Translations under genes and position numbers: made by a program
Shown: positions 46,157 through 57,221 of the stretch, one piece after another
How the letters are laid out: each line of letters starts with the position of its first letter
Numbering within the stretch: position 1 is the stretch's first letter
The notes under the pieces: model-generated
The model's input: the letters and a program-made list of their open reading frames with translations, nothing else
Databases searched by the model: none
Told to the model about the DNA's origin: nothing
IMG/VR virus record: IMGVR_UViG_3300010354_000061
Span: 1 to 64,000 of that record
DNA length: 64,000 nucleotides
Direction: 5' to 3' (one strand)
From: a virus

Positions 46157-46179
46157 TTTTGTTCCTCTGTTGTTAAAAA

Positions 46180-46476
46180 GAAAGAGGTGTTTCTGTTTCC
46201 AGGTACACCTCCGAAACCCAGATAGCCGATATTAGGCGGCCATCAGATAAGTGTCTTCATTGGCACTTATGATTTTGCGCTTTTACGGTAGTCGCCTTCC
46301 GGGTTGCCATATAGCCATACTCCCTGCCCGTCGAAACCAATTCAGGCCCATCAGAAGCATACTATTCTTGATTTAATCAAGTGCCTTCGTTAGGGTCTGC
46401 AATAGTGTGCTTTTGGTGGACCTGCCCGGAATTGAACCGGGGTCCGAACAGCTTTCTTTCTACACAGTTTACAACC
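46180..46476 (-). ncRNA. ssrA: circularly permuted (two-piece) tmRNA, tag ANEDTYLMAA
   Basis: acceptor piece ..GGACCCCGGTTCAATTCCGGGCAGGTCCACCA (ends 46414) precedes coding piece GGGCCTGAATTGGTTTCGAC (starts 46349); acceptor stem with G3-U; tag ORF 46264-46232. Confidence 0.92.
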
Positions 46477-46627
46477 ATTCACCTACAGTGAGGCCCTTTT
46501 CCGTGGCCCACTTGTTAGCCTCTTCCATATGTTCAAAGACAGGGCTTGCTAAAGTGTCTTCCTCATTAACCCAAAACCATATGTCAGCGTGGCTCATACC
46601 ATCGTTGTACTTTATAAGTTTCAACAT
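46469..46627 (-). CDS. small hypothetical protein (52 aa)
   Basis: MLKLIKYNDG...GLTVGEWL*, fills gap; stop overlaps tmRNA 5' end. Confidence 0.5.
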   Translation of the reverse strand: MLKLIKYNDGMSHADIWFWVNEEDTLASPVFEHMEEANKWATEKGLTVGEWL

Positions 46628-53883: not shown

Positions 53884-53967
53884 TGGTACCCGAGGCGGGA
53901 CTCGAACCCACAAGGCCAAAGCCGGCAGATTTTAAGTCTGCTGTGTATACCATTCCACCACTCGGGC
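53884..53967 (-). tRNA. tRNA-Leu (UAA)
   Basis: GCCCGAG..GGAATGGTATACAC-AGCAGA-CTTAAAA-TCTGC, long variable arm, GGTTCGAGTCC, CTCGGGT-ACCA. Confidence 0.95.
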
Positions 53968-54475: not shown

Positions 54476-55394
54476 TCTTTACGCCAAATTTATTCAAAAC
54501 GAGCAAAAAAGGCTAAAAAATTCAACGGTCGTTGCTTCTCGGTATTTGAGCGAAGCTCAAACTACACCTGGAGCGGGAGCTCCAGGACCCACCTCAGGGG
54601 GCGGAGCTCGAAGTGGTATGGGAGGATTACCTCTCAAACCTCGCTATACTATTCGAGATGGGAAAATTGTTCCAAAAGAACCAACTGTATCTCCTTCTGC
54701 CTCTCCTACAAAACCTAAACCCGAATTGAAAATGGAACCGTTACAGGTTGGAAAAGCAGTAGTAGGAGCAGCCGGCTTGGTAGGCGGAGGGGCAGCAATT
54801 CTCAGTGGAACAGAAAAAAGAAAAGAAGCAGAAGCAGAGAGAGCCCCAAAGCAAGAAACACCAGTAGCAGAGCCGCCAAAAAAAGAACCTCCAAAAGCTG
54901 AAGTATCTCCAGAGCCTTCGAAGCCAGAAGCTGCAGCAGAAGCTCCAAAATCTAGCGAAGAAGATGAAGAAGCAGAAAAGTATGTTGCTCCTGTTGAGAG
55001 AAGATATCGCTCCATCAAGAAAGAATCTCTTGAACGTTTCATCAACGTGCAAAAGCCACGTGTTCCAAACAGCTCCAAGTTTCCAGATGTTTTTACAGAA
55101 CAAGAAGCTGTTAAGGCCCAACCTATTAAAGCAAAGCCTGTCTCTGATGAGGTAAAGGCAGAACCAGTTAAGTCTGGAACTGAACTTGATTCAGAGCTTG
55201 AAGATATGCCAGGAACTGATCCAAAGGAGCAAGGAGCTAAGTTTCAGCCCGTAACAAGAAGTCCCGAGTACATGGATTACTTAAGACAGAACCAGGAAAA
55301 AATTATAGCAGCCAAGCGTGCACGTGAAGAGGCTGGAGCATTCAAGTCCAAAATCCAAGCTTCAAGCACTTCAGCTGACGTAGATTCTCTTTAG
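54459..55394 (+). CDS. putative internal head/ejected protein B
   Basis: ATG at 54459 with AGAGGA SD; paralogous N-terminus ending LSE-A. Confidence 0.6.
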   Translation: MTKKIDLYAKFIQNEQKRLKNSTVVASRYLSEAQTTPGAGAPGPTSGGGARSGMGGLPLKPRYTIRDGKIVPKEPTVSPSASPTKPKPELKMEPLQVGKAVVGAAGLVGGGAAILSGTEKRKEAEAERAPKQETPVAEPPKKEPPKAEVSPEPSKPEAAAEAPKSSEEDEEAEKYVAPVERRYRSIKKESLERFINVQKPRVPNSSKFPDVFTEQEAVKAQPIKAKPVSDEVKAEPVKSGTELDSELEDMPGTDPKEQGAKFQPVTRSPEYMDYLRQNQEKIIAAKRAREEAGAFKSKIQASSTSADVDSL

Positions 55395-55547
55395 GATTTT
55401 ACAAACATTATCGGCAAGCCAAACGCGGGCACATACCCTTAACAAATCGTTTGGCTCGTTGTCTACAATGTGCAGCAACTTCTTGATCAAATCTGTATCA
55501 CAATTTTCATAACGAAGTTCAGAAATGAATTCTGGTGTTATTTCCAT
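55371..55547 (-). CDS. small hypothetical protein (58 aa) downstream of hammerhead
   Basis: AAGGAGAG SD, MEITPEFISELRYENC... Confidence 0.55.
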   Translation of the reverse strand: MEITPEFISELRYENCDTDLIKKLLHIVDNEPNDLLRVCARVWLADNVCKILKRIYVS

Positions 55548-55684
55548 TCTGCTCTCCTTAATAGGTGCCGGTTACGCACTTCCGGCGAACTCTAGGAATG
55601 CTACGCGCATTCACACCGACAGAGGTTTTGGTCACATACAGGGTTCGCTTCCGGAACTCCCCCAGTATGCCAAATCATGTTGTT

Positions 55685-55778
55685 CCGCGTTGACTAACCG
55701 CTTAGCCGGCCACTTAGTAGCAACCCAAAGCGCGGCGGTTAGTTTCGACCCCTTCCCGGGTCATCGTCAGAACGCTGG
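55685..55778 (-). ncRNA. type I hammerhead ribozyme
   Basis: GCGTT-CTGACGA-T-GACCC/GGGTC-GAAA-CTAACCGC...GCGGTTAG-TC-AACGC; GUC cleavage after 55692. Confidence 0.88.
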
Positions 55779-56201
55779 TTATTCGGCCTTTGTAAAAAAG
55801 GCTCTCATTAACTGCTCATCGGTCCAGCTTGAAATATAATCATTATCTTCCCTACAAATTTGAAGCGCTTCTTCTTTTGTAACAACACGGTGACTGAGGA
55901 TTGTTTCACCAAGATCTTTTTGACTAAACTCTTTCGCTTCTTGGTATGTTACATCATCAAGCGCCCATTCAGCTTTTCCTTTGGGAACTTCAACACAGTA
56001 CCGCATGCGATAGGTTTGAACACACTCAACAAGAACAAGTTCGGTTTCTTGTTCCTCTACCTTCGACAGTGAGTAAGAACCGTCGCCGTTGTCTTTCCAA
56101 CGAAGAGTGTCACCCGGTGACCATCCTACAGCTTGCATCTCTTCGTTGGAAAATTCAATAAACTGCTCGCCGTTTGGTAAGGCTTGAATTCGCTTCATCA
56201 T
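55779..56201 (-). CDS. hypothetical protein (AbrB-like N-terminus, tentative)
   Basis: GWSPGDTLRW.DNGDGSYSL motif; AAGGAG SD. Confidence 0.6.
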   Translation of the reverse strand: MMKRIQALPNGEQFIEFSNEEMQAVGWSPGDTLRWKDNGDGSYSLSKVEEQETELVLVECVQTYRMRYCVEVPKGKAEWALDDVTYQEAKEFSQKDLGETILSHRVVTKEEALQICREDNDYISSWTDEQLMRAFFTKAE

Positions 56202-57022: not shown

Positions 57023-57221
57023 AACGCAATTATCCTTCGTTTTGACATTAATGTCAACTATTTACTGATTACCCCCAGAACAGGTATTTGGCCGCAACAG
57101 CAATGAACATCAGATAGGCAACGATCTTAATCAAGCCCCAGATGCCATCCCATACAATTGACCACTCGTTGGTTGTCATAATGTCTCCACGATGTATGTG
57201 AGAGCCACAATCAGCAAGAAG

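What the first reader, a model, noticed from the sequence alone, without database searches (positions are those of the whole stretch)
55560..55778. Hammerhead ribozyme directly after a stop codon, releasing a structured downstream RNA
Seen (minus strand): stem I GCGTT/AACGC (+CC/GG), core CTGACGA plus one extra T, stem II GACCC/GGGTC, GAAA, 8-bp stem III CTAACCGC/GCGGTTAG with a large loop, GUC site at 55694-55692. It begins right after the TAA of 55779..56201. The 3' product carries further stems (CATAC/GTATG inside TTTGG/CCAAA; GAATGC/GCATTC; GCCGG/CCGGC), then an SD and a 58-aa ORF. Known: hammerhead cleavage leaves a 5'-OH end. Inference: self-processing of a polycistronic early transcript to create a stable sRNA or leader.
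Basis: partly seen in the sequence, partly recalled or inferred. Interest (0 to 1): 0.75.

Follow-up and report, generated by a model that had tools for sequence, protein, structure and literature searches.

The report
Phage hammerhead ribozyme before pseudoknot leader
A complete self-cutting hammerhead RNA sits directly after a gene's stop codon in an uncultured myovirus-type phage, which is a known arrangement; the RNA it would release carries a small pseudoknot motif that recurs in over a hundred phages and that I found in no catalogue.

Summary
Minus strand 55684-55778 folds, as its minimum-energy structure, into a three-way junction with every conserved hammerhead nucleotide. It has one extra U between A9 and G10.1, and the cut site is C55692|A55691. 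A generic descriptor finds only this site in the window and in the whole 78.8-kb record, against 0.013 hits per shuffled window. Rfam's hammerhead models miss it, but they also miss every one of 12 sampled loci from the 90 phage loci that share its core, extra U and stem II. A model built from 19 of those elements scores it 37.8 bits.

It is a new member of a known kind: phage hammerheads flush with stop codons (Perreault 2011). This scan has already logged hundreds of them on other DNA. No homologous copy could be fetched, so this copy has no covariation evidence, and cleavage is untested.

The "structured 3' RNA" is no more stable than shuffled sequence. Its last hairpin, however, belongs to a widespread phage pseudoknot motif: over 118 viral contigs, several cultured phages, and a second copy at 63311-63356. 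The tertiary pair of that motif covaries through all four Watson-Crick pairs. Earlier scan notes probably describe the same motif on other DNA. Hammerheads and this motif do not travel together elsewhere.

The parts
55684..55778 (-). Hammerhead ribozyme with open stem I (type I topology), 95 nt including the 2-bp stem I extension
   Evidence: Minimum-energy fold is the hammerhead junction. It is the only descriptor hit in the window and in the genome. It scores 37.8 bits, E 5.6e-8, with the phage hammerhead model R1.
55763..55770 (-). Catalytic core strand C3-A9 (CUGACGA) plus one inserted U before stem II
   Evidence: Read. The same inserted U occurs in most of the phage elements sharing this core. 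[quoted passage not shown]
55747..55762 (-). Stem II (5 bp) with a 6-nt loop
   Evidence: Pair probability is 0.99 in the 231-nt context.
55693..55746 (-). GAAA core strand and stem III (9 bp including A15.1-U16.1) with a 33-nt insert that forms its own hairpin
   Evidence: Pair probabilities are 0.85-0.99. With this insert the element is the longest of the 52 compared (89 nt against 53-84).
55691..55692 (-). Predicted cleavage site: 3' of C17 (55692), leaving a 5'-OH on A55691
   Evidence: The position follows from the hammerhead numbering. The chemistry comes from established knowledge. Not tested.
55779..56201 (-). Upstream 140-aa ORF whose TAA abuts the ribozyme. It belongs to a widespread family of unknown function (phrog_661 N-terminus; some relatives carry PF04014).
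55601..55678 (-). 25-codon Cys-rich ORF inside the 3' leader, starting 13 nt after the cut, with only a weak GGA as ribosome-binding site. Status unknown.
   Evidence: Read. No homologue search was possible at this length.
55564..55687 (-). Pseudoknot-motif copy 1. The invariant hairpin is 55586-55582 with 55571-55567, with a loop ending xGUAA and an A-led tail. The 5' pseudoknot strand and helix H1 are either C55687-G55686 plus 55685-55682 with 55590-55587 (preferred), or 55619-55617 plus a weak H1 at 55616-55587.
   Evidence: Exact match to the 18 specified bases of the pattern. The fold constrained to the long H1 lies 1.7 kcal/mol above the optimum, against 8.5 for the short H1.
55371..55559 (-). 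Shine-Dalgarno AAGGAG (55559-55554) and the 58-aa ORF (ATG at 55547), the last gene of the minus-strand string. It has no relatives in viral contigs.
63311..63356 (-). Pseudoknot-motif copy 2, canonical: ACG, a 5-bp H1 with a 12-nt loop, the invariant hairpin, tail AUU. It lies between two minus-strand ORFs, 34 nt before an AGGAGG-led ATG.

Best explanation
This is a genuine hammerhead self-cleaving ribozyme of the open-stem-I kind that is common in phages. It lies in the gap between the 140-aa gene and the last small gene of a minus-strand gene string. As RNA polymerase passes, stems II and III form and the stem I 3' strand closes the junction. The RNA then cuts itself after C55692. The upstream message keeps the compact ribozyme at its 3' end with a 2',3'-cyclic phosphate. 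The downstream RNA starts with a 5'-OH, 144 nt before the 58-aa ORF. The expected result is that the two halves of the transcript get separate fates (stability, translation). Shown here: the sequence and fold, their rarity by chance, and kinship to a covarying phage hammerhead group. Inferred: cleavage itself, co-transcriptional timing, and the effect on the messages.
For: The complete core and all three stems are present, and the hammerhead junction is the minimum-energy fold. It is the only hit in the window and the only hit of any topology in the 78.8-kb record, against 0.013 hits per shuffled window. Ninety viral contigs match a 20-base pattern taken from its core, extra U and stem II, where about one match is expected by chance. 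These matches show stems I and III in the right register, and 14 of 15 pairs show changes on both sides. Model R1, built without the candidate, gives it a full-length match at 37.8 bits; the next best in the window is 10.6. Its stems I and III differ in sequence from the model consensus yet pair fully. The context is typical: of the 51 other unique open-stem-I phage hammerheads compared, 20 have the stop codon 0-3 nt before stem I. It lies on the coding strand between same-strand ORFs. Sigma70-like promoters lie upstream at 57057 and 56750, and no terminator-like site lies between them and the ribozyme apart from one weak 5-bp hairpin inside the 140-aa ORF.
Against: Rfam Hammerhead_1 and the other Rfam hammerhead models give no match, even at E up to 10. 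No homologous copy exists in the 87 loci that encode relatives of the upstream gene at 29-69% identity, so this copy has no covariation evidence. I found no stem I - loop II tertiary contact of the kind the nearest relatives have (loop UGGC pairing with a GCCA tail). Most of the R1 score comes from the core and stem II, which were also used to collect the model's sequences; type III elements forced into R1 reach 24-37 bits. At equilibrium in the 231-nt context, stem I has a pair probability of only 0.02-0.04, so cutting would depend on a co-transcriptional window. It is the only hammerhead in the record, whereas phage hammerheads often cluster.
Confidence: 0.75

Rival explanations
1. The hammerhead cut serves specifically to free the 5' strand of the downstream pseudoknot motif. 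The stem I 3' strand (55691-55685) contains the C-G that the motif's tertiary pair needs, and it adjoins the GAAC that can close the whole leader as helix H1. Ribozyme folding and pseudoknot folding would therefore exclude each other, and cleavage would switch the leader into its pseudoknot form just before the ribosome-binding site.
For: The 3' product constrained to this fold lies only 1.7 kcal/mol above its optimum, before any pseudoknot bonus. The C-G-then-H1 register matches the family consensus, with C at -2 in 83 of 93 copies and the -1 nucleotide paired in 81 of 93. An earlier scan note reports a hammerhead inserted in a loop of a phage pseudoknot RNA on other DNA (unverified lead).
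Against: A C-G plus a 4-bp closing helix within 100 nt is expected by chance about one time in ten (my estimate). The two elements are not linked elsewhere: the motif is absent from the 90 hammerhead loci, and the 119 motif loci hold only two hammerhead hits, one weak and both distant. Copy 2 in this same phage has no ribozyme beside it.
Confidence: 0.12
2. The element is a chance look-alike or a decayed, inactive hammerhead, and the gap is ordinary untranslated spacer.
For: There is no Rfam match, no conserved copy in related loci, no recognisable tertiary contact, an unusually long stem III insert, and low equilibrium probability of stem I. With about 250,000 windows scanned, a few chance hits with these stem lengths are expected (my extrapolation).
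Against: A chance hit would not also share the inserted U and the exact 5-bp stem II with 90 phage elements. Nor would it be expected to sit on the coding strand in a gap that starts at a stop codon. All invariant core positions are intact.
Confidence: 0.1
3. The stretch is protein-coding on the plus strand (104-aa ORF 55525-55839), and the RNA fold is incidental.
For: An open frame of 104 codons spans it.
Against: The ORF overlaps both flanking minus-strand ORFs. It matches no PHROG family (it was not run against Pfam), and its sequence is low in complexity.
Confidence: 0.02

Closest known systems
Hammerhead ribozymes flanking genes in phages and prophages (Perreault et al. 2011, PMC3088659)
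   Same: Full consensus core, intergenic position on the coding strand, variable neighbouring genes, and the proposed role of cutting long phage transcripts into gene-length pieces.
   Different: This one is solitary instead of clustered, and it has a much longer stem III (9 bp plus a 33-nt insert). Cleavage is untested.
Open-stem-I phage hammerheads with an inserted U and a loop II - 3' tail pseudoknot (loci L011-L100, model R1)
   Same: Identical core strand, inserted U, stem II sequence, GAAAC, closed stem III and a stop codon just upstream.
   Different: It lacks the UGGC loop and GCCA tail pairing that marks most of that group. Its stem I sequence is unrelated. The next start codon is 144 nt away, where the typical distance is about 30-45 nt. 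It scores below the main group (37.8 bits against 45-75).
Natural hammerheads with an extra nucleotide between A9 and G10.1 (CChMVd plus-strand hammerhead, De la Pena and Flores 2001; Penelope-like element hammerheads, PMC4209133)
   Same: One nucleotide inserted at the same core position.
   Different: Those are viroid or retroelement ribozymes of eukaryotes. That the insertion is tolerated here is inferred, not tested.
Undescribed phage pseudoknot RNA noted earlier in this scan (e1-2861132, e1-5781944); HK022 put RNA was the comparison offered there
   Same: A small, near-invariant folded element absent from Rfam, found in late-gene leaders and tRNA clusters of many phages.
   Different: I could not compare sequences with those notes, so identity is unverified. 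The put RNAs are about 70 nt, form two long stem-loops with no pseudoknot reported, and are known from only ten sequences. The motif is therefore not a put RNA by those features.

Membership tests
Hammerhead ribozyme (criteria of Perreault 2011) | Core C3 U4 G5 A6 N7 G8 A9, G12 A13 A14, A15.1-U16.1, H17 | tested here: met
   All are present at 55770-55764, 55746-55743, 55693 and 55692. The criteria are quoted from the paper.
Hammerhead ribozyme (criteria of Perreault 2011) | Three helices meeting at the core, with no mispair next to the core (1.1-2.1, 10.1-11.1, 15.1-16.1) | tested here: met
   The pairs are A-U, G-C and A-U. The stems are 5 (+2), 5 and 9 bp, and this is the minimum-energy fold. 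One U is inserted between A9 and G10.1, a known natural variation shared with most of the matching phage elements.
Hammerhead ribozyme (criteria of Perreault 2011) | [quoted passage not shown] | tested here: inconclusive
   No complementarity was found between the loop II hexamer and either flank of stem I. A bulged A in stem I and a GNRA-like loop II core are possible partners (reading).
Hammerhead ribozyme (criteria of Perreault 2011) | Site-specific self-cleavage giving a 2',3'-cyclic phosphate and a 5'-OH | not testable with these tools
   Needs transcription and cleavage assays.
Rfam RF00163 Hammerhead_1 | Covariance-model score at or above the gathering score of 34 bits | tested here: not met
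   No match at E up to 10. Calibration: twelve phage loci with elements of this kind also give no hammerhead match at the gathering score, and one of them none at E up to 10. The model does not cover this subgroup.
   37.8 bits, E 5.6e-8, model positions 1-62. Caveat: the seed sequences were collected with a pattern taken from the candidate's own core and stem II.
   Loop II is GGGAAG and the tail is GGAAC. A few members, such as L076, also lack this pairing.
Unnamed phage pseudoknot motif | Invariant 5-bp hairpin GCCGG/CCGGC, loop starting with A and ending xGUAA, and an A after the hairpin | tested here: met
   Copy 1 is at 55586-55566 and copy 2 at 63331-63313.
Unnamed phage pseudoknot motif | Helix H1 abutting the hairpin, preceded by C then a base that pairs with x | tested here: inconclusive
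   Copy 2 meets it exactly: ACG, a 5-bp H1, x = C. Copy 1 meets it only through a long-range 4-bp H1 (55685-55682 with 55590-55587), or through a weak local one.

The most novel reading that the evidence does not exclude
The leader released by the hammerhead is one folded domain of an undescribed, phage-wide pseudoknot RNA family. It has an invariant hairpin, a variable helix, and a covarying tertiary pair. Hammerhead stem I and the pseudoknot's 5' strand are mutually exclusive, so self-cleavage switches the leader into its pseudoknot form just before the ribosome-binding site. This would be a ribozyme-triggered RNA switch.
Probability: 0.1. Interest if true: 0.75.

Novelty: new member of a known kind. 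Interest (0 to 1): 0.35.

Why it matters
The hammerhead itself adds one more example to a well-documented class. It also shows that Rfam's models miss an abundant phage subgroup, the one with an inserted U and a long stem III, so annotation pipelines under-count these ribozymes. The more useful outcome is the downstream motif. It is a roughly 45-nt pseudoknot with an invariant hairpin, present in more than a hundred viral contigs and in cultured E. coli, Salmonella, Enterobacter, Burkholderia and Bordetella phages. It sits in front of unrelated genes and tRNAs. Its function is unknown, but it can be tested directly in laboratory phages. It occupies the same intercistronic niche as phage ribozymes.

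Tried and rejected
- **Rfam.** I scanned the window at gathering scores and 55400-55900 at E up to 10, and searched RF00163 in the whole record. There was no hammerhead match. I rejected this as evidence against the call after seeing the same blank on other phage hammerheads.
- **Homologous copies for covariation.** Blastn and tblastn against cultured phages found nothing. Seven viral and 80 metagenome loci encode relatives of the 140-aa protein, and none carries a hammerhead after the gene. The 58-aa ORF has no relatives in viral contigs.
- **A stable structured 3' sRNA.** Rejected on fold statistics.
- **Plus-strand 104-aa ORF.** Rejected.
- **T4-type late promoter enrichment.** TATAAATA occurs 5 times against 3.3 expected, which is not significant.
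- **Pseudoknot motif as an RNase P or tRNA-end mimic (hairpin plus ACC).** Weakened: the three copies not selected by my pattern have tails AUU, AUG and AAG.
- **Pseudoknot motif as a riboswitch.** Unlikely, because the downstream genes are unrelated: endolysin, Hsp20, HNH endonuclease, RecT, baseplate protein.
- **Pseudoknot motif as HK022 put RNA.** The features do not match.
- **Pseudoknot motif as HDV-like, twister or pistol.** Threading by hand did not fit, and there was no Rfam match.
- **Literature string search for the motif.** It returned only unrelated primer matches.
- **Bacterial-genome pattern scan.** About 120 chance matches are expected there, and only 28 of 118 hits pass the structural filter.

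Full report
**What is there.** The window is the first 64 kb of a 78.8-kb IMG/VR virus record, about 47% complete. It encodes T4-type baseplate wedge, tail fibre and tail proteins, a permuted tmRNA and a tRNA-Leu. On the minus strand the 140-aa ORF 56201-55779 ends in TAA. RNAfold returns exactly that three-way junction as the minimum-energy and centroid structure (-38.4 kcal/mol, z = -2.17).

**Is it more than chance?** I wrote a generic descriptor: CUGANGA, zero or one inserted nucleotide, stem II, GAAA, stem III opening with A-U, H17, stem I, and all stems at least 4 bp.
- It finds one site on both strands of the window, this one, with stems of 5, 5 and 9 bp.
- Three hundred dinucleotide shuffles gave 0.013 hits per window, and none with all stems of 5 bp or more.
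- Extended to all three topologies and the whole record, it is still the only hit.
- My extrapolation to the observed stem lengths gives about 1e-5 per window. A scan of 250,000 windows could therefore yield a few such hits by chance, and the descriptor alone does not settle the matter.

**Kinship.** A 20-base pattern taken from the candidate's core, inserted U, stem II and GAAA matches 90 viral contigs, where about one is expected by chance.
- The flanks of these matches show proper hammerheads in two topologies. Many have open stem I, a closed stem III of variable length and a stop codon just upstream.
- The same loci hold further hammerheads with different stem II sequences.
- A model built from 19 open-stem-I members, without the candidate, gives it a full-length match of 37.8 bits (E 5.6e-8); the next best in the window is 10.6 bits.
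- On the 103 matches across loci, 14 of 15 pairs show changes on both sides and 94.7% of cells pair, which no shuffle reached.
- Caveat: the seeds were collected with the candidate's own core and stem II, and type III elements forced into the model reach 24-37 bits. The independent information is that the candidate's stems I and III, unrelated in sequence to the consensus, pair fully in register.

**Rfam.** No hammerhead family matches, at the gathering score, at E up to 10 on 501 nt, or for RF00163 over the record. Twelve loci with relatives of this kind are equally blank at the gathering score, and one is blank at E up to 10. Membership by Rfam's model is therefore not met, but the model demonstrably does not cover this subgroup. 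[quoted passage not shown] The core criteria of Perreault et al. are otherwise all satisfied.

**Context.**
- Among the 51 other unique open-stem-I phage hammerheads compared, the stop codon lies 0-3 nt before stem I in 20. In 16 more, the UGA inside the core closes an open frame of at least 50 codons that reads into the ribozyme. The next Shine-Dalgarno-led start is typically 30-45 nt after the cut.
- Here the stop is 3 nt before the 5-bp stem I, and 0 nt if the extension is counted. The next such start is 144 nt away, and the element is the longest of the set.
- Sigma70-like promoters lie upstream at 57057 and 56750. No terminator-like site intervenes apart from one weak 5-bp hairpin inside the 140-aa ORF.
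- The 58-aa ORF is the last minus-strand gene before convergent plus-strand genes.
- Perreault et al. proposed that such ribozymes cut long phage transcripts into gene-length messages.
- Earlier notes of this scan record hundreds of phage hammerheads flush with stop codons, so the arrangement is not new.

**Weak points.**
- None of the 87 loci encoding relatives of the 140-aa protein (29-69% identity) has a hammerhead after the gene.
- I found no stem I - stem II tertiary contact.
- In the 231-nt context, stem I has an equilibrium pair probability of only 0.02-0.04, while stems II and III stay at 0.85-0.99. Cutting would have to happen co-transcriptionally, before downstream competitors are made.

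**The 3' product.**
- As a whole it is no more stable than shuffles (z = -0.72). Its first long hairpin is marginal (z = -1.53).
- Most of it can be read as a 25-codon Cys-rich ORF.
- Its last hairpin is exact for a pattern of 18 specified bases that matches more than 118 viral contigs, where about ten are expected.

**The pseudoknot motif in those viral copies.**
- A variable helix H1 (3-9 bp, with loops from 3 to over 60 nt) abuts the invariant hairpin.
- The base just 5' of H1 pairs with the loop base before GUAA in 81 of 93 unique copies, through all four Watson-Crick combinations (62 G-C, 8 C-G, 6 A-U, 5 U-A). In 10,000 shuffles the maximum was 64.
- The base before it is C in 83 of 93 copies, opposite an invariant G.
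- The architecture is thus an H-type pseudoknot with a hairpin in its first loop.
- Ninety-eight of 118 viral matches satisfy these extra criteria. In bacterial genome contigs, where about 120 chance matches are expected, only 28 of 118 do.
- No copy with other hairpin arms appeared in 2.4 Mb.
- Three copies not selected by the full pattern keep only the A after the hairpin.
- One of those three is a canonical second copy in this window, at 63356-63311, between two minus-strand ORFs.

**Where else the motif occurs.**
- It fills the gap between the virion-morphogenesis and baseplate-spike genes of Salmonella phage SEN5, and of a prophage in 28 complete E. coli genomes. No RNA is annotated there.
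- It stands just before tRNAs in some contigs.
- It precedes unrelated genes.
- It occurs in cultured phages including Bas82, Arya, Sashavirus, phi644-2 and PHB04.
- In Bas82 and Arya it heads a 200-300 nt gene-free stretch. The two stretches share a box complementary to the 3' end of 16S rRNA (my reading), and in Arya the stretch ends in a terminator.
- Rfam has nothing for it.
- Two earlier scan notes describe an undescribed phage pseudoknot RNA in late-gene leaders and tRNA clusters, probably this one. I could not verify identity.

**Are the two elements linked?** There is no general link. The 90 hammerhead loci hold no copy of the motif, and the 119 motif loci hold only two hammerhead hits, one weak and both distant.

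In this copy, however, the C-G that the tertiary pair needs can be C55687-G55686, inside the stem I 3' strand. It is followed by a 4-bp helix (55685-55682 with 55590-55587) that closes the whole leader. The fold constrained this way lies 1.7 kcal/mol above the optimum, against 8.5 for the local alternative. Cleavage would then free the strand that the pseudoknot needs. Such a fit is expected by chance about one time in ten, so I keep it as a low-probability rival.

**Verdict.** This is a real-looking hammerhead, a new member of a known kind, and ordinary in placement. Its cleavage and its conservation remain untested. The side observation, the pseudoknot motif, deserves its own follow-up.

Noticed in passing
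window 63311-63356 (minus strand): A second, canonical copy of the pseudoknot motif (ACG, 5-bp helix, invariant GCCGG/CCGGC hairpin, tail AUU). It lies between ORF 63776-63417 and the 70-aa ORF starting at 63276, 34 nt before an AGGAGG ribosome-binding site.
   Followed up: partly
loci L184-L301 (viral contigs); L302 (Salmonella phage SEN5); L424 (E. coli phage Bas82); L425 (Enterobacter phage Arya): A widespread phage pseudoknot motif absent from Rfam. It has an invariant hairpin, a freely covarying adjacent helix, and a tertiary pair that covaries through all four Watson-Crick combinations. It stands before unrelated genes and before tRNAs. It is probably the element in earlier scan notes e1-2861132 and e1-5781944.
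   Followed up: partly
L424:700-1000 and L425:690-915: In Bas82 and Arya the motif opens a 200-300 nt gene-free stretch. The two stretches share a box complementary to the last 13-14 bases of 16S rRNA plus a few other islands. Arya's stretch ends in an intrinsic terminator, so it may be a longer non-coding RNA.
   Followed up: partly
loci L011-L100: Rfam 15 hammerhead models give no match on twelve sampled loci from an abundant group of phage hammerheads with a U inserted after A9. Annotation pipelines that rely on Rfam would therefore miss these elements.
   Followed up: partly
window 55601-55678 (minus strand): A 25-codon Cys-rich ORF (four Cys in its last ten residues) starts 13 nt after the predicted cut and has only a weak GGA upstream. 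It could be a real micro-protein or an accident of the leader.
   Followed up: no
window 46160-46541 and 53884-53967 (minus strand): The phage encodes a permuted (two-piece type) tmRNA with tag ANEDTYLMAA and a tRNA-Leu(UAA).
   Followed up: no
window 55779-56201 (minus strand): The 140-aa protein has 475 relatives in the protein search. A few carry the AbrB/MazE-type domain PF04014, and its N-terminus matches phrog_661. Function unknown.
   Followed up: partly
L011:298-362 (minus strand): A pemK RNA (RF02913, 55.4 bits) lies in a contig that also carries a hammerhead.
   Followed up: no
window, whole: The T4 late-promoter octamer TATAAATA occurs 5 times against 3.3 expected in shuffles. Its presence alone does not show T4-type late promoters here.
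   Followed up: yes
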